Numbered from the stretch's first letter, positions 35,401 through 52,558 are shown. The stretch is 64,000 nucleotides of DNA from an uncultured Candidatus Saccharibacteria bacterium (GCA_964643545.1 CAZXTE010000001.1:19101-83100); one strand, 5' to 3'. Translations and numbers: made by a program. Notes: a model not told the origin generated them from the letters alone.

Positions 35401-37821
35401 TTATTTAATTCTCGCTACCGAGAAGTGATGGCCACGATCTTCCAGGTAGGCGTTACCAGCTTGTGGCGCCTGGGAGCCGAGTGAAGCCTGGCGCATGTTA
35501 TACGTGCCTCCCTGTGTCCCGACGTAGATGAATGTGTGTCCCTGGTCACCCGCTGCATAGATCAGTATGTCACCCGGCAACAGCTTGCTTGTGTCGTTTA
35601 TATCGTCAAAAACGGTGTACTTTTCGGGATGACTTCGGAGATACTCAAGTTGTGTTCCGGTGTCGACTTTCGGGTAACTCGTGTCCACCCCGCTACTGAG
35701 CATAACCGTAGCCACAAACCCACCACAGTCAGTTACGTCGGGTGTCGGATTGAATTGTTTCTTGGTATCGAGGAATTTTTGTGTTGCCGTTGCCCCATGG
35801 CCTTTGTCCGGCCACGCGAGGCTTATTGCGGTAGCCACAACATCACCCGCAACAGCAGCATTCCCCCCGGCATCAGGAGACCCTGTGCAGGTACCTGCAC
35901 TAGACCCACCACCACCCCCAACATAGTCTGCACCAATTGCAACCTTGTCGTAGTCACCCTCAGTGTCGCCAGGCCAAGCGATTTGTGGGGCGCCCGGTTT
36001 CTCATCGAGGCCGCCTAAATAGGCAAAGATAGCTCCCGCCCCCATGCGTCCGCTGTTGTCCAAGCCGTAATTACCGTATCCATAGGCGGCAGAGCCCAGA
36101 TATGCACTCCAGGTATTGAGCCATTCGTTGGCCCCAAAAGTTCCATCCTGAATGGCTGCAATAACCTCGGCACCAGTCTTCTGTGGGTTTCTTCTTGTTG
36201 CATGAAGGATAAGAACCCAGGTCGAGTAGTCGATATCTTGCACATTAGACCCATAACCACGTCTAGCTGGGGCACGTCCAGGGACTTGCTCGGGAGTATC
36301 AAAGAATCCGGGCACGCCCACATCGGCGGAATGCCACTTGTACTGCTTGCCGCCCAACTCAGCAGCAGTCGGAAGCTTCCGGCCATTAATCATAGATTGT
36401 TCTGGGTTCGAACTGCCTTCACGCCAGTGCGTTGCTGCTAGTGCCTGCCACGGCACGCCCCAACGCGCCCCAATAGACTTGTAGACAGGGATCTCCCTCA
36501 CGATATCACTTTTTATAAGTGCATCGAGTTTTGACTCTAACCCCTTGCCTTTAATCATTACATTATCGGGGTAGGTCTTGTAGCTGGCGTCAGCGGGTGT
36601 CCCTGGGTTACCGCCACCCCCGCCAGGAGCTGGCGCCCCGGGTTGGCGGATTGCATTAATACGATCCAAAGACTGCTGGATGCGCTGATTCGTTATTTTT
36701 CCTGCCTTATAGTCGGATTCAAGCCGGTCAAGCACCTTCCCAACCGATGATTCATTCACAAAAACAGCCATGTCTGCGCCTGCCGCGATCGCCATAGACG
36801 TTGCCTCCTCTACGCCGTATTTAGACTTAATGGCTTCCATGGTGCCTATGTCGTCTGTCATTGCGACACCGTTAAAGCCGTATTTATCGCGCAATAGTTT
36901 ATAGGTCTCGGGGCTCAAACTCGTTGGTATGCCACCAGTTGTTAGTCCGGGCACATTAAGGTGGCCCAGCATAACAGCAGACCTCGGGTTCTTTAGTAGT
37001 TTTTCGTAAGGCTTTAAATCCCTACCCTCCAGAGTTGCTAAGTCACTGGTTGTCACAACCTGTTTGTGCGAATCGCCATTGGCATAACCATGACCTGGGA
37101 AGTGCTTAAACACGGGCGTAAGGTTGCCTTGGCGGAGTCCTTCGGCAAACGCGCCAGACTTTTTTTCTACAACCGCAGGATCTTTCGAGAATGCCCTGTC
37201 CAAGGGGCTAATAACGGCAGAGCCACCATCGAGGTCTGCCACAGGCGCAAAATCCATGGTTAGTCCAACGGCTGCAAGCTTGTCCGCTTGGCCCTTCGCA
37301 ATGCTCTGAACTTCTGTGTCTGTTTTCGTACCCATTTCCCGAGCACTGGGCACAACGCCGAGCGGACGAAAGCGCTGTACTTTACCGCCTTCTTCGTCGG
37401 CAGCCACCAACATGGGTACAGGACCGGCTTTGAACTTATCGATCCACGTTTTATCTTTCTGCTCAAATTGTCGTCCCATCAAGAAGACTCCCCCCACATG
37501 GCTATCAATCAAGGCTTGAGCTTCTGACTCATTTGTCACAGAGACCATCAACAGTTGGGCGAGCTTCCCGCGGATGCCCCACTCAGCTGGAATTTCATAG
37601 CTGGCGCCAGTTGTTGGGCCTGTTGTTTCGCACTTCTCTTTGGCGTAGTTTGTCTTGTGGTGTTCCGTGTTTAGGAGGATGTGGTACAGATCGTCCTCGG
37701 GTATTTTTGCAGCCATTCCAAGTGGGATGATTGCTTGGAAATACAGCATGGTGAGAATGAACGACGCGCAAAAGAGGCGGAACAGGTGCTTTTTCTTCAC
37801 TATAGACATAGACATAGGCAT
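35401..37821 (-). CDS. multidomain secreted cell-wall hydrolase: GH3 (NagZ-like beta-N-acetylhexosaminidase) + central unknown domain + C-terminal CHAP/NlpC-P60-like domain
   Basis: GH3 N-domain motifs (VGGVFLMGRQ, AADEEGG, KHFPGHG). C-terminal Cys...His pair (CGGFVATVML ... GHTFIYVG). The start is chosen at MPMSMSIVKKK (37821) to avoid overlapping the upstream stop. Confidence 0.7.
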   Translation of the reverse strand: MPMSMSIVKKKHLFRLFCASFILTMLYFQAIIPLGMAAKIPEDDLYHILLNTEHHKTNYAKEKCETTGPTTGASYEIPAEWGIRGKLAQLLMVSVTNESEAQALIDSHVGGVFLMGRQFEQKDKTWIDKFKAGPVPMLVAADEEGGKVQRFRPLGVVPSAREMGTKTDTEVQSIAKGQADKLAAVGLTMDFAPVADLDGGSAVISPLDRAFSKDPAVVEKKSGAFAEGLRQGNLTPVFKHFPGHGYANGDSHKQVVTTSDLATLEGRDLKPYEKLLKNPRSAVMLGHLNVPGLTTGGIPTSLSPETYKLLRDKYGFNGVAMTDDIGTMEAIKSKYGVEEATSMAIAAGADMAVFVNESSVGKVLDRLESDYKAGKITNQRIQQSLDRINAIRQPGAPAPGGGGGNPGTPADASYKTYPDNVMIKGKGLESKLDALIKSDIVREIPVYKSIGARWGVPWQALAATHWREGSSNPEQSMINGRKLPTAAELGGKQYKWHSADVGVPGFFDTPEQVPGRAPARRGYGSNVQDIDYSTWVLILHATRRNPQKTGAEVIAAIQDGTFGANEWLNTWSAYLGSAAYGYGNYGLDNSGRMGAGAIFAYLGGLDEKPGAPQIAWPGDTEGDYDKVAIGADYVGGGGGSSAGTCTGSPDAGGNAAVAGDVVATAISLAWPDKGHGATATQKFLDTKKQFNPTPDVTDCGGFVATVMLSSGVDTSYPKVDTGTQLEYLRSHPEKYTVFDDINDTSKLLPGDILIYAAGDQGHTFIYVGTQGGTYNMRQASLGSQAPQAGNAYLEDRGHHFSVARIK

Positions 37822-37828
37822 GGTGTTA

Positions 37829-40800
37829 TTAGCTCCCAGTATGAGACCAATGCCATGGCTCATTCCAGTACTGCTTTAGATTATACTTTCCGGCGTTATC
37901 TATGAGCCAGTCCCACATCGGCATGCCGGGGGCAACACGAGGGTTGCTGGGGCTAGCTTTCCCACCATTTTTTGTGCCAAACTCCTCAGGGTGACCAACT
38001 CGAGTAAGCGCAAAATCTACGGCATCACCAGACTGATGTCTAGATGTTCCAGGCTTTGCGACATCGGAGTAGACGCCGTTAGGGCACTTATCATCTTTTG
38101 CGCACAGCTCTTGTTGGTGCTTCATGGTGCGAAAACTACTGGAGGCTTTGGGTGAGACGCCATCGCTCTTCATGGCGTTAAACATGTTCACCCAATCATT
38201 TGATTTGTCTGCTGCCACGAGTACGTTACCATCTGCCCCATTTACGTAATATTGACTACGCGGATTACTCTCCTCGCTTGAACTTGGGAAGCCAAGGATC
38301 GCACACAGGGTTATCTTCTTTAGAACGCCACCTTCATACCCATCGGCAAGCCCCACGTTCTTGGTGCCACTTGCACAGGTTCCGTCGCCCGTACCTCCCG
38401 TAGAGGCGGGGGGTGGTCCAAGACTCGCCACAAGAAAGTCGCTCTTTGCCAGGTATCCTGCAGCAGTATGGTGAATTTTATCTGGCGCAAACGGATACTT
38501 AGCTGGATTTTTAGCCACCTCGGCACGCCAGTCAATGGGTGTATATTTCAGGGCAGCCGCCTGGCTCGAAACTGCCGCCGCGACAGCATCGTAATTGGAA
38601 ATTTGGGTTTTTGCATTCATCCAGAATATCTTCGCCGAGGGGTTGTATTCGTGGATTTTGTCGACCATGAGTTTTATTTTGCTCGCGAACTGGGGGCTGT
38701 CTGGTCCTGGGTTTGTGCCCAGCATGACCGCTATTGTCCCGGCACGGCTAACTTCGTTTCTATCGAGGTCGATCTTTTCTAGAGATCGGTCAACGTCTAT
38801 ACCGTCGGTTGCCTGGACCTTGGTAACTTCCCACCCAGCAGTTTGCAGCTTGTTCGTTAATGAGCCTAAGTCTTTCATGCCGTTTGTCAACGAGTCGCCA
38901 ACGACGTAGACTGCATTATTGCCACCCCCACTATTTGAACCTCCGCCCCCGCTGGTGGTTTCAGATTCATAATCTTCCGGGTCGAGCACATCAGTTGTAT
39001 ATCGGCCACCAGCTGCCGCCACAGCCTTCTTATTTAGCAAGCAAGGGTTTTCCTTGGTGTGCACGTCGGTGCCCGTCTCCTTGTCCTCTATAAGCGTACC
39101 TGCAAATTCACCGCGCCCATTCGCCCAGTCTTTATCCATCTTTTCACAGACGGCGTCGGTAAGCGTGTCTGGGTCAACATCAAGTGCTGACGAATTCTTT
39201 GGAAAGCCATATTGGACGACACCAAATGGGTCAGGCTTTGCATCTGCTGCAAAGGTCTTTTTGGTGGCAAGTAAACTGCCAAAACTTTTTGACAGGCTTG
39301 TGAATGGATTTGCGAGAAGACCGGTGACGCCTGTATTGGCGGTTCTAGTCACACTGCTGGGTGTAGCCATCGCCATTTGGCTGACAAGTGATTTTGGACT
39401 CTCTGTGCTGAACATACGAGCAAAGAATGGTTGACGTTGGAATTCCTCGTTGCGCTGATTCTCTTGGTCGGCGCGAATCTCGGCTACCTGGGCGTCGGTG
39501 AGGCGTATGCCCCCCAGGCCATAGTGTGCATCATTATTCCCTGCTACATCGGCACCGCCTGCGAGCATATCGAATGTGCGGGCCCCGCTCATGTCTGCAG
39601 ACACTGGTGACGGGATTAGCCACTTCGCAATTGTTTCGAATATCTTGCCGATTTGTTCCTCAATCATCTTCTTTAGGTCAGCGTATTGAGGAAAGATCTT
39701 GCTAATTGCTGCCTCGACAGCACCTACGCCCAGATCAATGAGCTTATTGATCAAGTTAAGGATTTGTCCGATTGTGGCGTTCCATGCATCTGCCGTCTGC
39801 CCGAGCAGACTAAGTGGGGGTTGATTAAAGATGTCAGATATTTTCTGGATGACCCCATTGGTAAGCAGACTTTCCTCTGGGCAAATAAGCTTACCGGTGT
39901 CTGGCTTATTCTTATCGTCACATGTGTATTTTGGCTCTGACGCAGTGCTGCCCGTTTCTGCTGCGTATGCTTTTTGCGGCGACAGGACATCCAAAAAGGA
40001 GCTTTTTTGTATTGGTTCGCCTAGGATGTCCCCGTAGAGTGGTGCTAATTCAGCGGGTTGATTTTTGTGGTCTTTATCACCGGCGCTGTCACCCACACCA
40101 TTCGTCATGCTACCGAGCAACTCGACGTTACAATGCATGCCTTTGCACTCGTCTGCAGTTGTTCTATACAGCATGTAGGTTGCCACCATTTGCGTGCCAA
40201 TAATTTCGTATTTCCAGCGTTTCAATGCCGGCCCAGCTGACTTAGCTTTCGCGGTAATTCTGGCTGCTAGGTCAATCCAGCCAATAACAGGCAAGCCTTT
40301 CGAGGCGGCTGACCCTGCAGCCTCTCCGGCAATCTTCGCAACAACCTCTTCAACAATAAAAGCAGTTAAGCTCTTGTCTGCGAGTTTAATTGTCTTCTCA
40401 ACAATTTTTTCTACGGTCTCCTCGGTGAATTCTTTGCCAGACTTCTCAAGTGCCTCACGAATTTGTTTCTCTATTTTGTCTCTCCTCACTCCGTCATTGT
40501 CAGCTTCACCCTTCGATGCTTTGTCCGAATCACAGGCAGGATCGATGATACACTCTAATACAAAACCCAGATGTTGAGTGTAGGGTATGATGACCCGGCG
40601 ATTAATGACGAGCCTGAAGGCTCCCTTCTTTTTGTCTTTCCAGTCGTCTATGCGATCTTTTGATTTGCACGCAAAAACACACCTCCGGATGCCGTATTTT
40701 TCTTCCAGAAGTCGCCCCACCTTGAATCGGTACATAACACGCTTCCACAATGTCTCTTCTTTGAAAGACTCACGTACTTTTATGCGAACATCATTTCTGC

Positions 40801-41575
40801 CACCTGCTGCCTTCCACATACCCTGGTTTGGGTCTTTTCGCCAGCCTTCTACGTCAAGGTTACTCACTTTGTCATTGACCTTAATCTTGTAGTCGCTTGC
40901 CCCGCCACTAAAACCATCCCGGGTTATTTCTATGCCGTATTTCTCGGATAGTTTATTCTCGAGGCGTGCATCGCGCCAACCCCTAAACAAGCGGGCAGCC
41001 GGCGAATCGCCTTCTAGATTGGCAATACAATTTTTGTCTATTGTCCCAGACGAACGACTACAGGTTCCCTTGCCTAGGTTTGGGATCACCTTATCTCGGA
41101 GGTACTTGTCTAGTAGCCTTTCTGCTCTCGTTTGCACAGCACTCTCCGAGCTGGCAAAAAAGCGACTCTGCAAATTTTCCATGATGTGGTTAATCTTCAA
41201 GGGCAAAAACGCCATGAATGCGGCCAGAATCAAACCGCCAATGCCACCCCCAATAAGCCCAGCACCAATCAATTTCTTTTTTTTGCCGCCCGTGGCACCT
41301 GCTAAAAATTTCTTAAGGCTTTGAAGGTCTTTTACATCCTCAGTATTGTAGCCGCTCCCAACCCTATCGCCGAGCGCATCTGCTTCTCTTGATGCGGCTC
41401 CGCCAACACCATCCGCTGCCTCTCCCTGAGCCTCTTGCTCTGAGATATTTGGTGTTTCTGTCGAAGCGTCACCACTGGCCTCGTTTGTTAGTTTGGGGTC
41501 CTCATCTCCGCCCCCCACACTTCCTGATGCTCTTCGAGGCGAGTCATCGTCATATATTTTTGATGGTTCACCCAT
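37829..41575 (-). CDS. giant (1248 aa) T4SS-associated membrane-anchored protein with SGNH/GDSL hydrolase-like and peptidase M15 (VanY-like) C-terminal domains
   Basis: N-terminal TM after a K-rich segment (LIGAGLIGGGIGGLILAAFMAF). GDSL-like VYVVGDSLTNG block. M15 motifs SRHQSGDAVDF (S-x-H-x-x-G-x-A-x-D) and terminal EPWHW. Confidence 0.7.
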   Translation of the reverse strand: MGEPSKIYDDDSPRRASGSVGGGDEDPKLTNEASGDASTETPNISEQEAQGEAADGVGGAASREADALGDRVGSGYNTEDVKDLQSLKKFLAGATGGKKKKLIGAGLIGGGIGGLILAAFMAFLPLKINHIMENLQSRFFASSESAVQTRAERLLDKYLRDKVIPNLGKGTCSRSSGTIDKNCIANLEGDSPAARLFRGWRDARLENKLSEKYGIEITRDGFSGGASDYKIKVNDKVSNLDVEGWRKDPNQGMWKAAGGRNDVRIKVRESFKEETLWKRVMYRFKVGRLLEEKYGIRRCVFACKSKDRIDDWKDKKKGAFRLVINRRVIIPYTQHLGFVLECIIDPACDSDKASKGEADNDGVRRDKIEKQIREALEKSGKEFTEETVEKIVEKTIKLADKSLTAFIVEEVVAKIAGEAAGSAASKGLPVIGWIDLAARITAKAKSAGPALKRWKYEIIGTQMVATYMLYRTTADECKGMHCNVELLGSMTNGVGDSAGDKDHKNQPAELAPLYGDILGEPIQKSSFLDVLSPQKAYAAETGSTASEPKYTCDDKNKPDTGKLICPEESLLTNGVIQKISDIFNQPPLSLLGQTADAWNATIGQILNLINKLIDLGVGAVEAAISKIFPQYADLKKMIEEQIGKIFETIAKWLIPSPVSADMSGARTFDMLAGGADVAGNNDAHYGLGGIRLTDAQVAEIRADQENQRNEEFQRQPFFARMFSTESPKSLVSQMAMATPSSVTRTANTGVTGLLANPFTSLSKSFGSLLATKKTFAADAKPDPFGVVQYGFPKNSSALDVDPDTLTDAVCEKMDKDWANGRGEFAGTLIEDKETGTDVHTKENPCLLNKKAVAAAGGRYTTDVLDPEDYESETTSGGGGSNSGGGNNAVYVVGDSLTNGMKDLGSLTNKLQTAGWEVTKVQATDGIDVDRSLEKIDLDRNEVSRAGTIAVMLGTNPGPDSPQFASKIKLMVDKIHEYNPSAKIFWMNAKTQISNYDAVAAAVSSQAAALKYTPIDWRAEVAKNPAKYPFAPDKIHHTAAGYLAKSDFLVASLGPPPASTGGTGDGTCASGTKNVGLADGYEGGVLKKITLCAILGFPSSSEESNPRSQYYVNGADGNVLVAADKSNDWVNMFNAMKSDGVSPKASSSFRTMKHQQELCAKDDKCPNGVYSDVAKPGTSRHQSGDAVDFALTRVGHPEEFGTKNGGKASPSNPRVAPGMPMWDWLIDNAGKYNLKQYWNEPWHWSHTGS

Positions 41576-41601: not shown

Positions 41602-43515
41602 TTAAACTCCAGGCGTCAATCTATTGTTAAGGTCAATGGTGCCTTGTGGCTGATTGATTTCGCCCTGTCTCATTTGTTGAACCTGCTGCGGATTCGTTGT
41701 GATAAGCCCGGTTTCTGTAGGGCTGGCTGTAATCTGGATATGAACGTGGCTTTGCCCAGCGAAGAACAGGCCCTGGCCAACAGGAAATTGACTGAGGCGC
41801 TTCTTCTCCTCGCTGGTAAGCTTGAATATATCAGCCAATACATCAACGGCAGACGTCGACTGCTTCAGCAGTATCTGCATGCTTGCGTTGGCAACGATCG
41901 CGCGACCCATGCGTGATCCCATAAAGTCCTCCACATCCTGGCTAATGGTGGTAATGCCGAGGTTGTACTTTCGAGCACGTTTTGCAAGCGAAAACAAGAA
42001 GTTAGCAGAGTCTTCGTACTTCATAAGCTGCCAAGCTTCATCGACAATCAGAATGCGACGTTTTACGTCACTCTTCGTTTTGTTCCAGATGTAGTTCAGT
42101 ACAATGTACATAGCAACGGGGCGTAATTCGTCCTCGAGGTCACGTATGTTAAACACAACCAGGGGATTATTGACGTTAGTATTCGATTGCTGACTAAAAA
42201 TGCCCGCAAATGTACCGGTGGTATATTTTCTTAGACGCTGTGCGAGCTGTGGTCCTGTGCCGCCCATATGTAGCAGCGTGTCGTACAGATCGGCAATTGT
42301 TGGCGGAACCCCATTGTGCGTGAGTGGATCGTTGGTTATGCCGGCCTTGGCATATGTTTCGATGAGTGCTGCGTCGAGGTCGGATTCTTCTACGGGGGAT
42401 AAAGCAGGAACAGCGGCTACACCGCCACTTGCTGCCATTTGTGCTTGTGCGCCACCCATCATCAGTCGGAAGAGCCCGTGCAAAGTAATAATATTACTAC
42501 GCAAGGCGTTGTCGGCTTCTTCGGCATCTACAACCTTCGGAAGGTCAAAGGGGTTAATGCGTGTTGCTGAGCTCAAACTTAGTCGTACATATGCACCACC
42601 GACTGCATCACACATTCGCTGGTATTCGTTTTCTGGGTCAATAATAAAGATTTCGGTGCCGAACATAAGACTACGCAACGCTTCTAGCTTAACGGTAAAC
42701 GACTTACCAGCACCCGACTTGGCAAAGACAACTGAGTTGCCATTTTCTAGGCTAAACCGATCAAATATAACAAGACCAGAGTTGTGCATGTTGATGCCGT
42801 ACAATATGCCATTCTCTTGGCTCAGGTCGGCCGAAGTAAACGGGAAGCTCGTGCTAATCGCGCCCGTGTTCATATTGCGACGAATCTGAAGCTGGTCCAT
42901 AAATTGCGGTATGCAACTATTAAAGCCCTGCTCTTGCTGTGAGGTAGCTGCTTTGGAGTAGGTTAGCTGTTGGCCCAGCATAGACTCGATCTTGTGGGTT
43001 ACAAACTCCAGTTCGTCCATGTCGCCTGCGTAGACAGTAAAATATAATCCAAAACGGAAGAAACGTTCCTCGCCAACCTGTAACTTATCGCGCATTTCCT
43101 CAGCATCTGTAATGGCGGCCTGCTTGCCTGGGTCTCGCACGCGTCCCTTCTCTGCGTCAATCTGTAGACCGGCCTCTAACTGCGTTACTTTTTTGCGCAA
43201 GTTCTCCAAAACCACTTGGCTTTCCACGGGGTATATATACATAGAAAGATCCATAACCTCGTCGATGTTTACCAGGCTACTTGCCCAGCCTGTAAAAACC
43301 TGGCGGGGGTATCCGTAGACATAAAATGTTCTGGCTATCCTGGTCCCAATATGGAACAGACTATTCTCGAACACAAGTGAACTGGGGGCGATAAAGTCAC
43401 GAAGTGCAGTGATGCCCTTTTGGAACGCTGCGCTTACCTCTTGCTCTTCTCGTGCTCGTTGCGCTTGTGCGATTGCAACCGGGTCAACGGGTTGGTTCTT
43501 TCTGCCAAAAGCCAT
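41602..43515 (-). CDS. virB4: type IV secretion ATPase VirB4/TrbE family (Gram-positive PrgJ/TraE-like)
   Basis: Walker A FAKSGAGKSF, Walker B RILIVDEAWQ, and an N-terminal APSS..F...ARTFYV..YP signature typical of monoderm VirB4. Confidence 0.85.
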   Translation of the reverse strand: MAFGRKNQPVDPVAIAQAQRAREEQEVSAAFQKGITALRDFIAPSSLVFENSLFHIGTRIARTFYVYGYPRQVFTGWASSLVNIDEVMDLSMYIYPVESQVVLENLRKKVTQLEAGLQIDAEKGRVRDPGKQAAITDAEEMRDKLQVGEERFFRFGLYFTVYAGDMDELEFVTHKIESMLGQQLTYSKAATSQQEQGFNSCIPQFMDQLQIRRNMNTGAISTSFPFTSADLSQENGILYGINMHNSGLVIFDRFSLENGNSVVFAKSGAGKSFTVKLEALRSLMFGTEIFIIDPENEYQRMCDAVGGAYVRLSLSSATRINPFDLPKVVDAEEADNALRSNIITLHGLFRLMMGGAQAQMAASGGVAAVPALSPVEESDLDAALIETYAKAGITNDPLTHNGVPPTIADLYDTLLHMGGTGPQLAQRLRKYTTGTFAGIFSQQSNTNVNNPLVVFNIRDLEDELRPVAMYIVLNYIWNKTKSDVKRRILIVDEAWQLMKYEDSANFLFSLAKRARKYNLGITTISQDVEDFMGSRMGRAIVANASMQILLKQSTSAVDVLADIFKLTSEEKKRLSQFPVGQGLFFAGQSHVHIQITASPTETGLITTNPQQVQQMRQGEINQPQGTIDLNNRLTPGV

Positions 43516-44387
43516 TACAGTAGCTCCCTGTCTAAGTTTGGTTGTGGAGCCTGTCCTTGCCCTCTTGTGACAACAGGTGTTGAAAGATCACCGAAGTTAC
43601 GAAGTTGCTGCCTTGTTGCAGTATCTGGGTTGTAGGCATCGTAGTAGAGCTCGATAAGTTCCTGGGTATCGAGTGGTAACCCTTGGATGCCGCACTGCAT
43701 CAATCCAGAGAGTACAGCTTGTACGCGGTTTCTCAGCTCGTCTTTTGCCTTGGCGAGATCAGTCTCATTGATAACCACTTGCTTCTCAGGCTTCTTGCTG
43801 AACAGTGCCCCAATGCCACCAACAAGTTTCTTGCTTTCATCCAGTGTTTTCTGCAGGTCTGCTACGGGGAAATAGGGTATGACCACGTAAAAACGTTTAT
43901 CCATAATGTTGGTTTGTTGGCTCAACTGATCCATGAAATTTATGTAATCGTCCATGAGTAGCGCCAACAGCATGTTGTCGTGCTCGCTACGAATTTTGAC
44001 AAGCTTATCCAAGTAAGGTCCAAGGTCTACCTTCTCGGAACGGATCATAATTTGTATAGGGAAATAGAGAGAATTTAGAAAACCCTGGTAGCTAAACTCA
44101 ACAGCCTCTCGTTCTTGCGGGCTCATTAGGTCAAAGTTAATAGATTTTGTCATGATGACGGAACGGAAAGAGCCATCGTTCATGATCACAATACCATCTC
44201 GGATTTCCGCTATTTGCAGGGCATTTTGTGTGCTGTTTGGGTTTGATGGTGGTGCAAGAGGTTGTGGTTTGGCCCCAGCGGTACGAGGTGCATTAAAGCT
44301 AGCAGGTGGCGGTCCAGCGGGGGTTGGGTATGCCATCCCGGGCTGGTTTTGTACGGGGTTCATCTGAGGATTTGATGCCGGATTCAT
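43515..44387 (-). CDS. T4SS-associated protein with Pro/Gln/Asn-rich N-terminus, translationally coupled to virB4
   Basis: 290 aa. The N-terminal ~65 aa are low-complexity and Pro-rich. Its stop overlaps the virB4 ATG (TAATG). There is no TM segment. Confidence 0.55.
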   Translation of the reverse strand: MNPASNPQMNPVQNQPGMAYPTPAGPPPASFNAPRTAGAKPQPLAPPSNPNSTQNALQIAEIRDGIVIMNDGSFRSVIMTKSINFDLMSPQEREAVEFSYQGFLNSLYFPIQIMIRSEKVDLGPYLDKLVKIRSEHDNMLLALLMDDYINFMDQLSQQTNIMDKRFYVVIPYFPVADLQKTLDESKKLVGGIGALFSKKPEKQVVINETDLAKAKDELRNRVQAVLSGLMQCGIQGLPLDTQELIELYYDAYNPDTATRQQLRNFGDLSTPVVTRGQGQAPQPNLDRELL

Positions 44388-44427: not shown

Positions 44428-45471
44428 TTAACGCAGCGATATTATTACTTCACCATCGTCAGTCTTTGATTGACTGGGGTGGTTCTTCTCTGCCTCTCGT
44501 GCCAAACTATCAATCGGGCGATTATTCTCGATTGCTAGGTTCAGTATATCAGGCGCAGGTGCTGCTGTCACCCCTGGTGATTTTGGTTGTGCTTGCGGGG
44601 GCTGACTCGAAAGCGGCTGGAGCTTTCTGTGGTTACGAAACGACTCATCTGGGTGGCTTTTTTGCTCGTGTATCTTGTTTAGTAGCGCCTGCTCATTTGC
44701 GTCTGGTATTGCTGGCTTGGCAAAAGTCGGAGCAGGTGTTGACCCTCCCTGTGATTGCACGAACCAGCCTCCTGGGGGTGCGATATTGGTGCTCGGTGCT
44801 TGTTGCTCCCGAGCAACTTCACGCATGTGAGAGACTGCCTCTTGTTGGTGCACTTCCTTCGACTGGGCAATTTGGGCATCGAGCCGAGCGGCCGTTTGAT
44901 TATCAAAAATATCATCCTCTGCTCGAACATCTATGGTCGAGACCTGCTTTGGCAATTCCTCGACCGCTACAAGCCTGTCCGAGCTTGGCGCCATAGCTAA
45001 CGAACCGTAAGAGGGCTGTGCAAATAAGTTCACGTCCACGTTCTTAATAACCCAACCACGGCTGTCTATGGTTGTTGCCAGCGCCTTAAGGCGGCTTTTG
45101 ACTTCGTTCTGGCTAAGGTTATCAGAGAAGTTCTGTTCAATATGTTTTGGAACAGTTATCTTGACCAGTTCCTTCATGCCCGACTGGTCCCAAATGCGTT
45201 TACGTGGCTTAAAGTAAAAACGGAGCTTAGCGAGGAGCCATACCTCAGTGGGCTGATCTCGACCCCACGGGAACGCCAAAAACCCAAAGACAATCTCTAT
45301 AGGCAACAAAATAACCGCCACAAACCATACATTGTGTGTAAGGCCCAAGAAACTTATGTAAAGACTGGTTACAACAATCGCCCCAAAGATAAATTGTTTC
45401 AGCGTTAAGGGGCCAAGGAACTTATCCTCTGCCTCAATATCCTGGAGAACTTTATACGTAGCCACTAGCAT
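44428..45471 (-). CDS. VirB3/PrgI-like membrane protein with a long Pro-rich C-terminal tail
   Basis: Two N-terminal TM helices (FIFGAIVVTSLYISFLGL; WFVAVILLPIEIVFGFLAF) within the first 70 aa, as in VirB3/TrbD. The tail is Q/P-rich. Confidence 0.5.
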   Translation of the reverse strand: MLVATYKVLQDIEAEDKFLGPLTLKQFIFGAIVVTSLYISFLGLTHNVWFVAVILLPIEIVFGFLAFPWGRDQPTEVWLLAKLRFYFKPRKRIWDQSGMKELVKITVPKHIEQNFSDNLSQNEVKSRLKALATTIDSRGWVIKNVDVNLFAQPSYGSLAMAPSSDRLVAVEELPKQVSTIDVRAEDDIFDNQTAARLDAQIAQSKEVHQQEAVSHMREVAREQQAPSTNIAPPGGWFVQSQGGSTPAPTFAKPAIPDANEQALLNKIHEQKSHPDESFRNHRKLQPLSSQPPQAQPKSPGVTAAPAPDILNLAIENNRPIDSLAREAEKNHPSQSKTDDGEVIISLR

Positions 45472-45523: not shown

Positions 45524-46495
45524 CTAAAGAGCTGGAGGTCCGGCAGGTGGTGCTGGAGGTGCAGCGGGCGGAGGCGGCAGTGCAGCTATGCGGGCAGCCT
45601 CTGCCGTAGCAGCTGCCTGGGCATCCAGATTGGCAGTTGCAAGTGCGGCAGTAGTTTGTATCTCGTTTAAGACCGCCCGCTCTGCATCGTATCTACCGAC
45701 GGCTGCATCAAGCAGGTTCACTCTCGTTTCTTTGGGGGTAGAAGCGCGTTTGTATTGAGGGCTAAATTCACCCAGAATTTTAAAAGCATCAAATCCACCA
45801 CCCTCCTTGTCGGGTCGCCTAGGGCGTTCCCGGGCAATGGGCATGTTGCTCTCGAATGGACCAAGGTCAGGCGTTGGGGAATAGGAGGTATCCTCTCCTA
45901 GGAGTGCTGGCCCCCGTGATGGAACGTGGCCTTCAAAGAATTCAAGCCCTGTCCCCACAATCCTACCAAGCGCTCCTGGATCGTCAGAGACGTGTTTTCT
46001 GCGACCCGTTGGGATGACTTCACGCCTAATGCTAAACACGGCAAATATTGGAGAGCCGCCGTCTCGGGCAACTTCCACCGGTGTGCTATAGGTTGTTTCA
46101 ACGCGTCCTATCGGCTGCTCTTCTCGCGAAATTCTGCCAGGTATGCGACTTCGCCGGTCTATACCAGGCCCTCTTGTTCGCAGGGCGTTTTGTCGCATGC
46201 GATCGGGCTCGCTTCTTTGGGTACGCTCTGCATCAACACCAATTCGCTGGATTAAGTCATCAACGTCTGCGGCTACTCGCTCTTGTTCTCCGTAGAATTC
46301 AAGCACAGCTTCCGCACCCCTGTGAATGTCCTGTGTTGCCTCAACGTGCGCTTCCCTTGTAGCCTCTTCATCATCACGTCGATCGTGTCTGGCCGTCTGT
46401 AATCTACGACGGAGGTCTTCTTGGTAGGCTGCTTGTTCTGGGCTAGGGATATCGCTCATAGTGTATTTTTGTTTTAATAGTGAGTAACAAATCAA
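45524..46495 (-). CDS. hypothetical charged protein with a C-terminal poly-Pro/Ala tail (VirB10-like linker candidate)
   Basis: The track start is a TTG. An ATG is possible at 46459 (MSDIPSP). The protein is Arg/Asp/Glu-rich and ends PPPPAAPPAPPAGPPAL. GC is higher than its surroundings. Confidence 0.5.
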   Translation of the reverse strand: MICYSLLKQKYTMSDIPSPEQAAYQEDLRRRLQTARHDRRDDEEATREAHVEATQDIHRGAEAVLEFYGEQERVAADVDDLIQRIGVDAERTQRSEPDRMRQNALRTRGPGIDRRSRIPGRISREEQPIGRVETTYSTPVEVARDGGSPIFAVFSIRREVIPTGRRKHVSDDPGALGRIVGTGLEFFEGHVPSRGPALLGEDTSYSPTPDLGPFESNMPIARERPRRPDKEGGGFDAFKILGEFSPQYKRASTPKETRVNLLDAAVGRYDAERAVLNEIQTTAALATANLDAQAAATAEAARIAALPPPPAAPPAPPAGPPAL

Positions 46496-49931: not shown

Positions 49932-50450
49932 ATGAACGAAAACAATAATCAAACACCAGCAGAAACCGTAGACTACAGTTTCATAACGGATCAACCCACG
50001 GCATCTCCAAAAAAGAAACCTAATAAAATGATCGCCATATTTCTCGGGTTGACGTTGCTCGTTATTTTGGCGGCGGGCTTACTGTTGTTAGTACAGTCCA
50101 AAAAAAGCACAACCAAAAGTAACATCGACGCAGAACAGGTCGTCCGACAACTTTTTGTAGATATGGGGAACGGGGATAATATCGCCGCCCTAAACGCATT
50201 TACGGGGCCAAATAAGCCGGATGCTGCGTACCTTGAGGGCTACTTAATAGCTCCGCTGAAGAATGATTACTTGGTAGATTCATGCACATTTACCTCTTCA
50301 GAAACAAAAGTAGCTAGCTATTACCAGGTCAAGGCATCTTGCCCACAAAAGCAAGCAAGTAACATCAGAATTCGTGTAGACTTTACAGTTATGAGACAAG
50401 AGCTATCATCGAAAATTGTTGCATACTCTCTTGGCGGGGTAGATACGTGA
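49932..50450 (+). CDS. bitopic membrane protein with NTF2/SnoaL-like ectodomain (VirB8-like candidate)
   Basis: TM (IAIFLGLTLLVILAAGLLLLV), then QLFVDMGNGDNIAALNAFTG, typical of the NTF2-like fold that VirB8 adopts. Confidence 0.5.
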   Translation: MNENNNQTPAETVDYSFITDQPTASPKKKPNKMIAIFLGLTLLVILAAGLLLLVQSKKSTTKSNIDAEQVVRQLFVDMGNGDNIAALNAFTGPNKPDAAYLEGYLIAPLKNDYLVDSCTFTSSETKVASYYQVKASCPQKQASNIRIRVDFTVMRQELSSKIVAYSLGGVDT

Positions 50451-51433
50451 AATTGGTAAAGCGGGTTCACACCGCCGGATTAGTTATCCTATCTGTCGCT
50501 GGTCTACTTAGTGCAACATTATTCGTACATCCAAAATCGGTCCAAGCAGCCGCGCCAATATGCTATGAGCTACTCGGCAGCTCTGGTAATGATGTCCGAG
50601 TGGCTGACTGTAATAATCCCACAGTAGTTACTTTAAGAGACCAAAAGTACCCTGCTGACAAAAAATTTCTTGACGATCACTGTTACCTATATGGTGGATT
50701 TGGATTTTTCATAAAACGAGGTTTAACAGAAGTGCCGCCTGCGAGCGATGCAAATAAGAAATACACCTGTGAGTGGGCAAGAAAAGCGGCGGCTGCAGGT
50801 CAGGCAGCCGCTCCAAAATGTTACTTATTCTCTCGTGCGACGTTGGACGATTACTTTTCATTTAAATTTGCCGCTACAGATATCAAGGAAACTGCGTGCA
50901 CGCAAGAATTAAAGAATTACTACAGGTTTGTTCACAATCCTAAAGAAATAGAAAGCGGGTGGTGCTACCTATTCAGCCAAGATCATAACAACATCCAGAC
51001 ATCATGTGCAGACCTTCTTTCCAATATTGCAACTGCAGATAGTAGCGGAGGCGGGGGCGGCGGCACCTCCAGTTGCGCAAGCGATCCAACGCTTTCTTTC
51101 TGTGTGGACCTGCCGGTTAAGACCAATGATACGTGCGGCGAAGCTGGTAGCGGTACGGAAGTCCAGATATCGATCAATGTGGGATGTGTGGGCAAAGGTA
51201 ATGGCATTCTTGATCTGACCTTTGCGCTCATTCGATTTCTCTCTTATGGTGTGGGCATTGCCATGGTGGCCTCTTTAGTTGTTGCTGGCATACAGTACAG
51301 CTCCTCTAGAGGTGATCCACAGGCTACCAGCAAGGCAATAGGTCGTGCGCAGAGCACTGTTGGGGCGTTACTTCTGTTCTTGTTTATATATGCTATATTG
51401 AACTGGATAATACCCGCAGGACTCTTGAAATGA
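50447..51433 (+). CDS. secreted Cys-rich protein with C-terminal VirB2/TrbC-like pilin domain (tip/adhesin pilin candidate)
   Basis: Signal peptide. About 16 Cys with internal CY[EL]L/CYLFS repeats and a Gly6 linker. The C-terminus has two hydrophobic helices separated by SSSRGDPQ, as in the downstream pilins. Confidence 0.6.
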   Translation: MKLVKRVHTAGLVILSVAGLLSATLFVHPKSVQAAAPICYELLGSSGNDVRVADCNNPTVVTLRDQKYPADKKFLDDHCYLYGGFGFFIKRGLTEVPPASDANKKYTCEWARKAAAAGQAAAPKCYLFSRATLDDYFSFKFAATDIKETACTQELKNYYRFVHNPKEIESGWCYLFSQDHNNIQTSCADLLSNIATADSSGGGGGGTSSCASDPTLSFCVDLPVKTNDTCGEAGSGTEVQISINVGCVGKGNGILDLTFALIRFLSYGVGIAMVASLVVAGIQYSSSRGDPQATSKAIGRAQSTVGALLLFLFIYAILNWIIPAGLLK

Positions 51434-51819
51434 CACTCCCCCTAACCTATTTTGCAGCAGCTTGTGAAGCTGGGAAAGACACCGCCGGGCAGGTGTTAAA
51501 CTTCTTTGCATTTCCTACGTGGTACAAATATCTTGAAGGGCAGACTATCACAAGTAACGGTGCCGCAGAATGTGCCCCTAAAATCACTAAGATTGGTGAT
51601 GCCTGGTTGGTGTTGGCGGCTGTTATAGAAATAATGCTACGAGTCGGTGCACTCATTGCGATAGCATTTGTTATCTATGGGGGCATATCGTTTATTACCA
51701 GCGAAGGACAGCCAGATAAAGCATCAAAAGCCAGGAGCACAGTAATAAATGCAGTTATTGGGCTGGCACTTTCGATTTCGGCATCGGCGGTAATCTCTTT
51801 CATAGCAAGGAGCTTTTAA
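51430..51819 (+). CDS. VirB2/TrbC-like pilin paralog 2
   Basis: 129 aa with two hydrophobic helices flanking TSEGQPDK and a Cys pair near the N-terminus. It overlaps the upstream gene (ATGA). Confidence 0.6.
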   Translation: MTLPLTYFAAACEAGKDTAGQVLNFFAFPTWYKYLEGQTITSNGAAECAPKITKIGDAWLVLAAVIEIMLRVGALIAIAFVIYGGISFITSEGQPDKASKARSTVINAVIGLALSISASAVISFIARSF

Positions 51820-52140
51820 GTGACATTCAACGTATTTGCACAAACACAGCCCCCACCTACTTCACAGGTTGGTGTTTGTACTACAGATTTGTGCAACACA
51901 AATCTGCCCGCAGTGAGTGCAGGAAGCACGCAAGTGACTACGGTTTTGCAGATCTTGTTTGGAGTGGTAGCAGTGCTGGCGCTTATTTATGTCATTTTGG
52001 CAGGTTTGAAGCTCATCACTTCCAGCGGTGATCCTCAGTCAGTAGCAAAAGGACGACAACAGATACTCTTTGCAGTTATTGGCCTGACAGTTGCACTCAG
52101 CGCCGAACTAATCATTTCATTTGTAATCAACAGGCTATAA
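51820..52140 (+). CDS. VirB2/TrbC-like pilin paralog 3
   Basis: 106 aa with a CTTDLC pair and two hydrophobic helices flanking TSSGDPQS. Confidence 0.6.
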   Translation: MTFNVFAQTQPPPTSQVGVCTTDLCNTNLPAVSAGSTQVTTVLQILFGVVAVLALIYVILAGLKLITSSGDPQSVAKGRQQILFAVIGLTVALSAELIISFVINRL

Positions 52141-52142
52141 TC

Positions 52143-52550
52143 ATGAGAAAATTAACACTAGTTATGGCAACCGTACTAGGCAGCATGCTTTTTGCGCTGC
52201 CGAATACAGTATTTGCGGTAGATGTTTTTGGGGGGTCGGACGGTGCTTGTACACAAGCAAATACCACGGGCGAAGTTCCGGAAATATGTAAGGACACCGT
52301 GAACGCAACGGGCGAGAACCCTATAGTAGGGCCGAGTGGTATTGTCACCAAGGGTTTACAAGTACTCGTCATTGTAATCGGCATCATTGCGGTTGTGATG
52401 TTAGTAATCTCTGGGCTACGACTTATTATGTCGGGCGGTGATCCAAAAAATGCGGCCAGCGCACGAGATGGCATACTGTACGCCGGTATTGGTATAGTAG
52501 TAGTAGTGACTGCACAACTGCTGATCAACTTTGTATTAACAAAACTGTAA
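52143..52550 (+). CDS. VirB2/TrbC-like pilin paralog 4
   Basis: 135 aa with a signal peptide, a C..C pair, and helices flanking MSGGDPKN. Confidence 0.65.
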   Translation: MRKLTLVMATVLGSMLFALPNTVFAVDVFGGSDGACTQANTTGEVPEICKDTVNATGENPIVGPSGIVTKGLQVLVIVIGIIAVVMLVISGLRLIMSGGDPKNAASARDGILYAGIGIVVVVTAQLLINFVLTKL

Positions 52551-52558
52551 AGGAAAAA

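What the first reader, a model, noticed from the sequence alone, without database searches (positions are those of the whole stretch)
37829..41575. 1248-aa membrane-anchored giant combining SGNH/GDSL hydrolase-like and peptidase-M15 (VanY-like) domains inside the T4SS operon
The C-terminal 400 aa contain a GDSL-type block (VYVVGDSLTNG) followed by unmistakable LAS/M15 zinc-peptidase motifs (SRHQSGDAVDF and terminal EPWHW). The N-terminal ~800 aa carry a single TM and long charged, coiled-coil-like regions. Monoderm conjugation systems use multidomain wall hydrolases such as PrgK and TraG. An esterase/deacetylase-like SGNH domain combined with an M15 peptidase, at this size, is an unusual combination. 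It could act on a host wall instead of the producer's own wall.
Basis: partly seen in the sequence, partly recalled or inferred. Interest (0 to 1): 0.65.

Follow-up and report, generated by a model that had tools for sequence, protein, structure and literature searches.

The report
Saccharibacterial T4SS stalk protein with swappable wall-cutting heads
This is a real, membrane-anchored 1248-residue protein of the type IV secretion gene cluster of a Saccharibacterium (an ultrasmall bacterium that lives on other bacteria), built from a conserved 870-residue stalk of unknown fold plus two cell-wall enzymes, and it belongs to a large family in which the enzyme heads are exchanged between lineages, which suggests they are matched to the host's envelope.

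Summary
The ORF at 37829-41575 (- strand) is 1248 aa, with one TM helix (101-125). It carries an SGNH esterase-like domain (S895, G925, N955, D1032/H1035) and a VanY/LdcB-type M15B zinc peptidase (H1180, D1187, E1239, H1242). It lies between virB4 and a second multidomain hydrolase, next to recF-dnaN-dnaA, in a Candidatus Saccharibacteria genome.

It matches by position and architecture SEML1_0007 of Southlakia epibionticum. That gene is an uncharacterised 'hypothetical protein' scored essential for epibiotic growth (Wang 2023).

The family is large: 731 clusters at 50% identity with E<=1e-30. All members share the ~870-aa N-terminal module, which matches nothing in Pfam, NCBIfam, PHROGs or PDB. 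A fixed junction motif and a Gly/Ser linker follow, then an exchangeable head. Heads include divergent LAS peptidase, VanY, M23, SGNH, GH5, phosphoesterase, EEP, beta-helix, or none.

The SGNH+VanY tandem recurs in three clusters, so it is uncommon but not unique. The same modules also shuffle into the adjacent gene.

Best reading: a T4SS-docked, outward-facing scaffold that presents wall-processing enzymes at the epibiont-host contact. Whether the target is host wall or own wall is unresolved. I rate it a new variant of a known kind, of moderate interest.

The parts
37829..41575 (-). Whole ORF, 1248 aa (stop codon 37829-37831)
   Evidence: 49 homologues; dN/dS 0.043 against L001
41276..41575 (-). 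Residues 1-100: Gly/Ala/Asp/Ser/Glu-rich N-terminal tail, inferred cytoplasmic. A KKKK run sits just before the TM helix. The family consensus shows a moderately conserved 'M-x-x-P-x4-Y-D' start.
   Evidence: composition, sequence; consensus; topology inferred from the positive-inside rule
41201..41275 (-). Residues 101-125: the only transmembrane helix (LIGAGLIGGGIGGLILAAFMAFLPL)
   Evidence: Kyte-Doolittle scan; helix in the AF2 model
38966..41200 (-). Residues 126-870: conserved family ectodomain ('N-module'). It is almost all helical, with 12 Cys in this protein, 10 of them invariant or >=90% conserved across the family (8 invariant). It ends in the junction motif NPCLL...GG..T.DVL.PED. 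No match to any known family.
   Evidence: negative searches
38912..38965 (-). Residues 871-888: Gly/Ser-rich linker 1 (ESETTSGGGGSNSGGGNN). This is the point at which heads differ between relatives.
38426..38911 (-). Residues 889-1050: SGNH/GDSL hydrolase-like domain. Block I G893-D894-S895, block II G925, block III G953-T954-N955, block V D1032-x-x-H1035.
   Evidence: Pfam; family alignment; residue numbers; AF2 pLDDT ~70-89; Foldseek hits to SGNH structures (OafB 6se1, TesA, OatA C-domain)
38351..38425 (-). Residues 1051-1075: Pro/Gly/Thr-rich linker 2
37832..38350 (-). Residues 1076-1248: VanY/LdcB-type M15B zinc peptidase. Motifs S1178-x-H1180-x-x-G-x-A-x-D1187 and E1239-x-W-H1242; R1149 is invariant in the A3 alignment.
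   Evidence: Pfam 56.2 bits; PDB sequence hits to 4mph/4jid/5zhf/4ox3; invariant columns; AF2 pLDDT 86.5; Foldseek VanYB 5hnm E=3.3e-7 and LdcB
41602..43515 (-). VirB4-like T4SS ATPase, immediately upstream (26-nt gap)
35401..37863 (-). Second multidomain hydrolase: GH3 LpqI/NagZ-like beta-N-acetylglucosaminidase plus a weak NlpC/P60 match. The mechanical ORF overlaps the target by 35 nt. The more likely start is ATG 37821, 7 nt after the target's stop, with GGGAG 11 nt upstream.
43515..44387 (-). 290-aa protein; its homologues in related loci carry the precomputed Pfam hit TraC-like (PF26593)
44428..45471 (-). PrgI (VirB3-like) family protein, 347 aa
50447..53460 (+). Divergently placed array of one 328-aa ORF and five ORFs of 106-142 aa with two hydrophobic helices each. 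Likely the VirB2-like pilin array described for Saccharibacterial T4SS clusters.
   Evidence: literature

Best explanation
The gene encodes the bitopic (N-in, C-out) envelope-processing subunit of the chromosomal, origin-proximal T4SS of a Saccharibacterium. It belongs to the family that includes the essential S. epibionticum gene SEML1_0007.

Proposed mechanism:
1. A short cytoplasmic tail and one TM helix anchor the protein beside the VirB4/PrgI/VirB6-like membrane complex.
2. A conserved, helical, probably disulfide-stabilised ~745-aa ectodomain acts as a stalk or scaffold. This is the constant, indispensable part of the family.
3. A flexible Gly/Ser linker carries exchangeable enzyme heads. 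In this genome there are two. The first is an SGNH esterase, most plausibly a glycan/peptidoglycan O-acetyl esterase. The second is a VanY/LdcB-type zinc peptidase that acts on D-Ala-terminated stem peptides.
4. With the translationally coupled next gene (GH3 LpqI/NagZ-like glucosaminidase + NlpC/P60), these heads process peptidoglycan where the T4SS and its pilus meet a wall.

Heads are swapped often between lineages and include enzymes for non-peptidoglycan polymers and phospholipids. I therefore infer that the main substrate is the variable envelope of the bacterial host at the contact site. Both breaching and harvesting of wall fragments are possible, rather than only the producer's own wall.

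Shown: the domains, their catalytic residues, topology signals, operon position, family architecture, head swapping and purifying selection.

Inferred: docking to the T4SS, the substrates, and host versus self targeting.
For: Gene reality and constraint.

Domains and catalytic residues: VanY; SGNH.

Topology: single TM at 101-125 preceded by KKKK; all 16 Cys lie C-terminal to the TM.

Conserved synteny in 20+ loci: PrgI, TraC-like, VirB4, family member, second hydrolase, 1-2 small genes, then recF/dnaN/dnaA. Gene spacing is tight.

Family size: 731 representatives at E<=1e-30.

Head census of 178 representatives:
- 56 divergent LAS-motif
- 27 VanY
- about 27 M23-like
- 11 SGNH only
- 2 beta-lactamase-like
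- 2 phosphoesterase (PF04185)
- 2 GH5
- 1 beta-helix
- 1 EEP+M23
- 3 SGNH+VanY
- 35 with no head

Of the 35 head-less members, 31 stop 0-18 aa after the module end.

Head class matches the nearest N-module neighbour in only 50 of 143 cases, against a random expectation of 31.8 +/- 5.7. The junction motif plus linker is sharp.

The closest SGNH relatives outside the family (46-49% identity) sit in the adjacent second gene of other operons. Second-gene mosaics include Amidase_2/3, SLT, M23, CHAP, NlpC/P60, phage tail lysozyme, M15_4, GH75 and GH43.

VirB4 is 79-88% identical across loci where the N-module is only 30-46% identical, as expected for a surface-exposed part.

Literature:
- SEML1_0007 sits directly after VirB4, has a C-terminal Hedgehog/DD-peptidase fold, and is scored essential.
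- TM7x cannot make UDP-GlcNAc.
Against: - No experiment here shows activity, localisation or interaction with the T4SS.
- About three quarters of the heads are peptidoglycan peptidases, which an own-wall VirB1-like role would also explain.
- VanY/LdcB relatives are carboxypeptidases that trim stem peptides and do not open holes in a sacculus.
- The SGNH Pfam score is 0.5 bit below the gathering cutoff. Its structural matches are weak (best E=4.5e-3). Four of 15 SGNH heads in the family lack the catalytic His in my alignment, so some may be non-catalytic.
- One fifth of the family has no head at all, so the enzymatic activity is not the family's core function.
- The head-swapping statistic comes from 50%-identity cluster representatives. 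That sampling favours pairs that differ in their heads.
- Correspondence with SEML1_0007 rests on synteny, gene lengths and architecture. I could not align the two sequences.
Confidence: 0.6

Rival explanations
1. Own-wall VirB1 analogue only. Like PrgK, TraG(pIP501) or CwlT, the protein locally remodels the Saccharibacterium's own peptidoglycan so that the T4SS channel and VirB2-like pilus can be assembled. Head diversity would then reflect drift among interchangeable wall enzymes.
For: Same operon position and the same N-in/one-TM/C-out layout as monoderm VirB1-like hydrolases (review text). Most heads are peptidoglycan peptidases. The literature already suggests that the enzymes downstream of virB4 may replace VirB1.
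Against: Heads and second-gene domains with no obvious role on a producer's own peptidoglycan occur in the same slots: GH5, PF04185 phosphoesterase, EEP, beta-helix, GH43 and GH75. Heads turn over much faster than the N-module. This protein has no glycan-cleaving domain. Head-less members exist.
Confidence: 0.25
2. Polymorphic toxin or effector. The conserved N-terminal part is a trafficking module. The C-terminal heads are released or translocated by the T4SS to damage or kill the host or competitors, as in bacteria-killing T4SSs.
For: The form is that of a polymorphic toxin: a conserved N-terminal region, a fixed junction motif, a linker and an exchangeable C-terminal enzyme. The heads include typical antibacterial effector activities such as M23, M15, lipase/esterase-like, phosphoesterase and EEP. 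The function of the Saccharibacterial T4SS is described as completely unknown, with effector delivery only speculated.
Against: An N-terminal TM anchor argues for retention in the producer's membrane. No known trafficking or toxin-junction domain was detected. The downstream gene is another large hydrolase, not a small immunity gene. The small genes after it show only weak Ig-like or beta-propeller hints. No coupling protein is encoded nearby (literature). One fifth of members have no head.
Confidence: 0.1
3. Salvage enzymes. The heads and the next gene mainly harvest wall-derived nutrients (GlcNAc, D-Ala, muropeptides) for an organism that cannot make them. The link to the T4SS would be only genomic.
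For: In this genome the set looks like recycling or trimming enzymes. The VanY domain is nearest to LdcB/VanY carboxypeptidases. The GH3 domain is nearest to LpqI/NagZ exo-glucosaminidases (6gfv 1.1e-64). TM7x cannot synthesise UDP-GlcNAc.
Against: Strict conservation of the gene's place directly after virB4 and its tight coupling within the cluster. In other lineages the heads are endopeptidase-type (M23) or act on other polymers. Head-less members keep the 870-aa module.
Confidence: 0.15

Closest known systems
SEML1_0007 of Candidatus Southlakia epibionticum ML1 (Wang et al. 2023, Cell; PMC10633639)
   Same: It sits in the same place: directly downstream of the VirB4 gene SEML1_0008, followed by a multidomain lysozyme/cysteine-peptidase gene, then a 211-aa exported protein, then recF/dnaN/dnaA. 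It has a similar size (1113 aa). Its only recognisable domain is a C-terminal Hedgehog/DD-peptidase fold at 951-1105. Its best Foldseek matches were proteins named for M15B or M23 domains, which fits a shared N-module with different heads.
   Different: SEML1_0007 has one head; the window protein has two (SGNH + VanY). Correspondence is inferred from synteny and architecture. I could not obtain the sequence to align it. SEML1_0007 itself is annotated only as 'hypothetical protein', and its mechanism is unknown.
PrgK (pCF10), TraG (pIP501), CwlT (ICEBs1): VirB1-like hydrolases of monoderm conjugative T4SSs
   Same: They are encoded in a T4SS cluster with PrgI/VirB3 and VirB4. They have an N-terminal cytoplasmic segment, one TM helix and extracellular multidomain wall hydrolases. 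PrgK also carries a LytM (M23) domain.
   Different: Those proteins combine a glycan-cleaving domain (SLT or muramidase) with CHAP or NlpC/P60. The window protein has neither. Instead it has an esterase-like and an M15B domain, behind an ~745-aa orphan helical ectodomain that those proteins lack.
VanY / LdcB (MEROPS M15B) D,D- and L,D-carboxypeptidases
   Same: Pfam VanY scores above its cutoff. The zinc ligands and catalytic Glu motifs are present. The fold matches VanYB (5hnm, E=3.3e-7), BaLdcB (4jid/4mph) and LdcB (4ox3).
   Different: Sequence identity is only 20-25%. The domain is fused to a 1075-residue T4SS-associated protein and has an extra N-terminal beta-hairpin. Bond specificity is unknown.
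SGNH domains that act on acetylated glycans (OatA C-terminal domain, OafB SGNH domain, sialate and xylan O-acetylesterases)
   Same: The four SGNH blocks are present. The best structural matches are 6se1 (OafB), TesA, 6vjp/6wn9 (OatA-C) and sialate O-acetylesterases.
   Different: All matches are weak (E>=4.5e-3, 13-20% identity). There is no sequence-level PDB hit. The Pfam score is 0.5 bit below the cutoff. The substrate is a guess.
Polymorphic toxin systems and effectors of bacteria-killing T4SSs (X-Tfe with XVIPCD)
   Same: A conserved module plus exchangeable enzymatic domains that include wall hydrolases and lipases/phosphoesterases.
   Different: No known trafficking domain and no evident immunity gene. 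The protein is TM-anchored. The conserved part is N-terminal, whereas XVIPCD is C-terminal (from my own knowledge). No VirD4 is nearby.

Membership tests
Peptidase M15B / Pfam VanY (PF02557) | Profile score above the curated cutoff | tested here: met
   56.2 bits against a cutoff of 25, residues 1122-1247
Peptidase M15B / Pfam VanY (PF02557) | Zinc ligands His-x6-Asp and a C-terminal His, plus the catalytic Glu in E-x-x-H | tested here: met
   H1180, D1187, E1239 and H1242. They align to the same motifs in 4mph/5zhf and are invariant in the 8-sequence alignment A3.
Peptidase M15B / Pfam VanY (PF02557) | Hedgehog/DD-peptidase fold | tested here: met
   AF2 model pLDDT 86.5. Foldseek: VanYB 5hnm E=3.3e-7, LdcB 4jid/4mph/4ox3 about 1e-5. 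I could not measure ligand geometry because model coordinates are not exposed.
Peptidase M15B / Pfam VanY (PF02557) | Carboxypeptidase activity on D-Ala-terminated stem peptides | not testable with these tools
   Needs a muropeptide assay
SGNH/GDSL hydrolase (Pfam Lipase_GDSL_2, PF13472) | Profile score above the curated cutoff | tested here: not met
   32.4 bits against a cutoff of 32.9 (E=1.6e-7), a miss of 0.5 bit. Relatives P0088 and P0128 score above the cutoff.
SGNH/GDSL hydrolase (Pfam Lipase_GDSL_2, PF13472) | Blocks I (GDS), II (G), III (GxN) and V (DxxH) | tested here: met
   S895, G925, N955, D1032/H1035
SGNH/GDSL hydrolase (Pfam Lipase_GDSL_2, PF13472) | Three-layer alpha/beta/alpha SGNH fold | tested here: inconclusive
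   AF2 pLDDT about 70-89 for this segment. The top Foldseek PDB and BFVD hits are all SGNH proteins with probability 1.00 but weak E-values (>=4.5e-3).
VirB1-like hydrolases of monoderm T4SSs (PrgK/TraG/CwlT type) | Encoded within a T4SS cluster beside VirB3/VirB4 | tested here: met
VirB1-like hydrolases of monoderm T4SSs (PrgK/TraG/CwlT type) | N-in single TM with extracellular hydrolase domains | tested here: met
   One hydrophobic segment at 101-125 preceded by KKKK; the enzymes lie C-terminal to it. This is a prediction only.
VirB1-like hydrolases of monoderm T4SSs (PrgK/TraG/CwlT type) | A glycan-strand-cleaving domain (SLT/muramidase/glucosaminidase) together with CHAP or NlpC/P60 | tested here: not met
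   No such Pfam or NCBIfam hit in this protein. GH3 and weak NlpC/P60 matches are in the next gene.
Saccharibacterial SEML1_0007-type family (defined here by the N-module) | Full-length match to the ~869-position N-module profile, ending in the junction motif and a Gly/Ser linker | tested here: met
Saccharibacterial SEML1_0007-type family (defined here by the N-module) | Position directly after virB4 in the origin-proximal T4SS cluster | tested here: met
   SEML1 gene table
Saccharibacterial SEML1_0007-type family (defined here by the N-module) | Essential for epibiotic growth | not testable with these tools
   Shown only for SEML1_0007 by Tn-seq
Polymorphic toxin systems | Conserved N-terminal region with variable C-terminal enzymatic domain after a fixed junction | tested here: met
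Polymorphic toxin systems | Cognate immunity gene immediately downstream | tested here: not met
   The next gene is a 358-983-aa multidomain hydrolase in every locus examined. The following small genes give no immunity-like hit.
Polymorphic toxin systems | A known trafficking or pre-toxin domain (LXG, Rhs, PT-VENN, XVIPCD and the like) | tested here: not met
   No Pfam or NCBIfam hit in residues 1-870

The most novel reading that the evidence does not exclude
The SEML1_0007-type family may be the host-envelope 'drill bit' of the Saccharibacterial T4SS. A conserved stalk would project from the secretion machine and carry interchangeable lytic heads, shuffled with those of the adjacent gene. The set of heads would be matched to the wall chemistry of the host, so that it both opens the host envelope for the T4SS/pilus and sets host range. 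In this genome the esterase + carboxypeptidase + LpqI-like glucosaminidase set would also feed wall-derived sugars and amino acids to an epibiont that cannot make them.
Probability: 0.35. Interest if true: 0.8.

Novelty: new variant of a known kind. Interest (0 to 1): 0.55.

Why it matters
The T4SS of Saccharibacteria is essential for growth on the host, yet a 2024 perspective calls its role 'completely unknown'.

The protein examined here is one of its least understood subunits. It belongs to a family of many hundreds of sequence clusters. That family pairs an invariant orphan stalk with enzyme heads that are exchanged between lineages and with the neighbouring gene. This pattern is typical of molecules that face a variable target.

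It turns a vague idea ('the T4SS may act on the host') into concrete experiments. Heads can be swapped or inactivated in the genetically tractable S. epibionticum, and one can ask whether attachment, feeding or host range changes. It also supplies a catalogue of candidate lysins aimed at Actinobacteria.

If the heads prove to serve only the producer's own wall, the finding reduces to an unusual VirB1 substitute.

Tried and rejected
Unavailable or empty:
- The look-up of encoding contigs had no record for the exact protein.

Negative searches on the N-module:
- Foldseek of the 1159-residue model against PDB and BFVD returned only SGNH-domain matches. Nothing matched the N-module among the 50 listed hits (E up to about 0.2 for PDB and about 1 for BFVD).
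- Pfam, NCBIfam, PHROGs and a family profile against PDB sequences all gave nothing for residues 1-870.
- This argues against a tape-measure-like protein or an SLT-like all-alpha lysozyme fold. I also saw no ES/GLMQ/AYNxG-type motifs by eye.

Structure prediction:
- The first AF2 run left the VanY domain unresolved (pLDDT about 30). The global alignment mixed unrelated heads. A second run with a VanY-only alignment fixed this.

Immunity-gene hypothesis:
- Downstream small ORFs were scanned in the window and 8 loci. They gave only weak Ig-like, beta-propeller or carboxypeptidase-regulatory-like hints.

Other:
- Promoter and terminator scans were uninformative. Counts were close to those from shuffled sequence (15 vs 17.3±4.1 promoter-like; 27 vs 18.5±4.1 terminator-like) and no site marked a gene boundary.
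- The homologue search with the C-terminal 360 aa returned only 5 hits, too few to trace the origin of the heads outside Saccharibacteria.
- hhalign of the divergent 'LAS' heads against VanY heads gave only moderate support: probability 67%, E=5e-5, over the zinc-motif region. Their M15-like assignment therefore rests on the H..D..HxH motif (25 of 41 tails against about 1 in shuffles) and on the ECOD call for SEML1_0007.
- Literature searches found no description of the family's exchangeable heads. The library is incomplete.

Full report
**Observation.** The quoted motifs are at residues 891-899 (VVGDSLTNG), 1178-1188 (SRHQSGDAVDF) and 1239-1243 (EPWHW). Pfam finds VanY at 1122-1247 (56.2 bits, cutoff 25). 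It finds Lipase_GDSL_2 at 891-1041 (32.4 bits, 0.5 bit under the cutoff, E=1.6e-7).

A hydropathy scan shows a single membrane-spanning segment at 101-125, preceded by KKKK. All 16 cysteines lie after it. This fits an N-in, C-out orientation with an oxidised ectodomain; that orientation is an inference. The start codon is supported by a nearly invariant M1 and a shared N-terminal consensus in homologues.

The gene is under strong purifying selection. Against a 94%-identical relative (L001), dN/dS is 0.043 overall. By segment it is 0.030 for the N-terminal module, 0.016 for SGNH and 0.067 for VanY.

**The two heads.** The SGNH domain keeps all four diagnostic blocks: G-D-S895, G925, G-T-N955 and D1032-x-x-H1035. 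It is modelled at pLDDT about 70-89. Its only structural neighbours are SGNH proteins: the OafB periplasmic domain 6se1, TesA, the OatA C-terminal domain, and sialate and xylan O-acetylesterases. All are weak matches (E>=4.5e-3). No PDB sequence matches it.

The VanY domain aligns at sequence level to BaLdcB (4mph/4jid), VanYB (5zhf/6a6a) and YodJ/LdcB (4ox3), with both zinc and catalytic motifs in register. S1178, H1180, D1187, E1239, H1242 and R1149 are invariant in an 8-sequence alignment. With that alignment AlphaFold2 gives pLDDT 86.5. Foldseek then returns VanYB 5hnm (E=3.3e-7), LdcB enzymes and VanXYc, followed by the phage endolysin Ply500.

At the level I could check, they are present. 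I could not measure geometry because model coordinates are not exposed.

**Context and organism.** The minus-strand genes are tightly packed. In order:
- a 1098-aa protein
- a 323-aa protein
- PrgI/VirB3-like (Pfam E=3.4e-11)
- a 290-aa protein (TraC-like in homologous loci)
- VirB4 (NCBIfam CD1110 family, 346.8 bits, cutoff 325)
- the target
- an 820-aa GH3 + NlpC/P60 protein
- two small membrane or exported proteins

These converge on recF, with dnaN and dnaA beyond. A divergent array of small two-helix ORFs at 50447-53460 looks like the VirB2-like pilin array reported for these systems.

A scan of species-representative genomes found 26 related loci. They are titled Candidatus Saccharibacteria/Saccharimonadales or are evidently mis-binned contigs of that group. 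One carries a 94%-identical full-length copy.

The gene order PrgI, TraC-like, VirB4, family member, second hydrolase, one or two further genes, recF/dnaN/dnaA is conserved in essentially all loci long enough to show it. VirB4 is 79-88% identical across these loci, whereas the target's N-module is only 30-46% identical.

**What is already known.** Wang et al. 2023 defined the S. epibionticum T4SS as SEML1_0006-0019 and found it essential for growth on the host. Their tables list SEML1_0007 as 1113 aa and 'hypothetical protein'. It lies directly after the VirB4 gene SEML1_0008. Its only assigned domain is a Hedgehog/DD-peptidase fold at 951-1105, and it is scored growth-defective/essential. It is followed by SEML1_0006 (two lysozyme-like domains plus a cysteine peptidase) and a 211-aa exported protein. 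The window's last small gene is also 211 aa.

Quinonero-Coronel et al. [quoted passage not shown] A 2024 perspective calls the role of this T4SS 'completely unknown'. NCBI names a >=90%-identical protein 'D-alanyl-D-alanine carboxypeptidase family protein'.

So the gene's existence, place and importance are on record. Its architecture and mechanism are not.

**The family.** All 49 first-round homologues (28-44% identity) align over residues 1-870 and then diverge. A profile search of 1.84 billion cluster representatives gives 2378 hits at E<=1e-3 and 731 at E<=1e-30.

The N-module ends in a fixed motif with consensus ...NPCLLI.A..GSAGG.FD..LLT.DDL. A 10-25-residue Gly/Ser/Thr/Pro linker follows, then the head.

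Among 178 representatives with a complete N-module, I classified heads by BLAST clustering, motifs and Pfam:

| Head class | Count |
|---|---|
| Divergent H..D..HxH (LAS-type) heads, no Pfam hit | 56 |
| VanY | 27 |
| M23-like (11 of 32 scanned reach Pfam M23) | about 27 |
| SGNH only | 11 |
| SGNH+VanY | 3 |
| Beta-lactamase-like | 2 |
| PF04185 phosphoesterase | 2 |
| GH5 | 2 |
| Beta-helix | 1 |
| EEP + M23 | 1 |
| Weak NlpC/P60-like, or unknown | a few |
| No head | 35 |

Of the 35 head-less members, 31 stop 0-18 residues after the module boundary. These are natural ends, not truncations.

**Head exchange.** The nearest neighbour by N-module has the same head class in only 50 of 143 cases. 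Label shuffling gives 31.8 +/- 5.7. The sample is of 50%-identity representatives, which favours pairs with different heads, so this overstates the swap rate.

The window's SGNH is closest to SGNH-only heads (P0103, 54%). Its VanY is closest to VanY-only heads (P0069 and P0025, 43%). The other two tandem proteins are only 27-32% identical to it. This suggests assembly from modules.

Outside the family, the closest SGNH relatives (46-49% identity) are in the adjacent second gene of other Saccharibacterial T4SS operons. There the SGNH is fused to a glucosaminidase or to M23.

That second gene is itself a mosaic. Across loci it carries Amidase_2 or Amidase_3, SLT, M23, CHAP, NlpC/P60, phage tail lysozyme, M15_4, GDSL, GH75, GH43, and here GH3. 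The two genes therefore behave as one shuffling cassette of envelope-degrading domains behind a constant stalk.

Ten cysteines are conserved across the family (eight invariant, two at >=90%), as are motifs such as VMYRFKVGRLLEEKYGI.RC. Because one fifth of the family consists of the stalk alone, the stalk must carry the core function. I infer that it is a structural, outward-facing T4SS subunit.

**Mechanism and rivals.**

*Best reading (confidence 0.6).* The protein is a T4SS-docked scaffold that presents wall-processing enzymes at the epibiont-host contact. Here these are an esterase, most plausibly removing O-acetyl groups from glycan, and a VanY/LdcB-type peptidase acting on D-Ala-terminated stems. 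They work together with the next gene's LpqI/NagZ-like glucosaminidase (best PDB hits 4yyf 1.9e-70 and LpqI 6gfv 1.1e-64) and its NlpC/P60 domain.

The argument for the host wall as target is indirect. Heads turn over quickly. Domains for non-peptidoglycan polymers and phospholipids occupy the same slots. The exposed parts evolve fast.

*Own-wall VirB1-like role (0.25).* This explains the position, the topology and the predominance of peptidases. It does not explain the odd heads.

*Polymorphic toxin (0.1).* This fits the form of the family. It is opposed by the TM anchor, the lack of an immunity gene and the head-less members.

*Salvage role (0.15).* This overlaps with the best reading. It is suggested by the carboxypeptidase and exo-glucosaminidase character of this genome's set, and by the inability of TM7x to make UDP-GlcNAc.

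**Comparison and novelty.** The protein works like a monoderm VirB1-type hydrolase in place and topology. It fails the defining domain test, having no glycan-cleaving or CHAP domain. It is a member of the VanY/M15B family by every test I could run. It is an SGNH hydrolase by motifs, though marginal by profile score.

It belongs to the SEML1_0007-type family, whose constant-stalk and variable-head design I did not find described in the searchable literature. I rate it a new variant of a known kind, with interest 0.55.

The family-level pattern is the more interesting result.

Noticed in passing
window 35401-37863 (-): The gene after the target is a second multidomain hydrolase. Its GH3 domain is most similar to LpqI-type exo-beta-N-acetylglucosaminidases (PDB 4yyf 1.9e-70, LpqI 6gfv 1.1e-64, 5iob 2.5e-57), followed by a weak NlpC/P60 match. 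LpqI is a mycobacterial peptidoglycan-recycling enzyme (from my own knowledge), so the domain may have come from Actinobacteria. The likely true start is ATG 37821, with GGGAG 11 nt upstream and 7 nt after the target's stop, rather than the mechanical ORF start at 37863.
   Followed up: partly
window 50447-53460 (+): One 328-aa ORF and five consecutive ORFs of 106-142 aa, each ending in two hydrophobic helices with a conserved GGD/GGE-type turn. This looks like the array of divergent VirB2-like pilins reported for Saccharibacterial T4SS clusters.
   Followed up: no
L003, L005, L008, L009, L010, L012, L013, L019, L023 (gene directly after the family member): The second gene of the cassette is a different mosaic in almost every genome. 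Examples: Amidase_2+SLT, Amidase_2+M23, GDSL+SLT_2+M23, Amidase_3+NlpC/P60, phage tail lysozyme+CHAP, lysozyme+M15_4, GH75+Amidase_3+lysozyme, GH43+lysozyme+M23. GH43 and GH75 are not peptidoglycan enzymes.
   Followed up: partly
window 37832-38350 versus L001 13229-13744: Between the window and its 94%-identical relative, the VanY segment has dS 1.39 and 86% amino-acid identity. The rest of the gene has dS 0.67-0.82 and 95-98% identity. This may mean the head was replaced by recombination from a somewhat more distant lineage.
   Followed up: no
window 45524-46495 (-): The 323-aa T4SS-cluster protein is only 79% identical to its L001 counterpart over 287 residues, while its neighbours are 94-99.5% identical. 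It is a local hot spot of divergence with no recognisable domain.
   Followed up: no
L007, L014, L022 (record titles Limnocylindrales, Verrucomicrobiia, Sulfotelmatobacter): These contigs carry the Saccharibacterial T4SS cluster, with VirB4 80-85% identical to the window where VirB4 is present (L007, L022) and dnaA/dnaN 60-70% identical where those genes are present (L014, L022). They are probably mis-binned Saccharibacterial contigs.
   Followed up: no
L024 10001-12373: A family member with no VirB4 detectable within 10 kb upstream; only a relative of the 1098-aa protein is present. This may be a rearranged cluster or a second copy.
   Followed up: no
family heads P0020, P0041, P0092, P0122: Four of 15 SGNH heads lack the block V histidine in my alignment. 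Some SGNH heads may therefore be non-catalytic binding modules, or the alignment may be wrong at that point.
   Followed up: no
window 43515-44387 (-): The 290-aa protein between PrgI and VirB4 gives a weak PHROG hit to terminase large subunit (E=9.4e-5). This is consistent with the reported remote similarity of TrsD/TraC-like proteins to the N-terminal part of VirB4-type ATPases.
   Followed up: no
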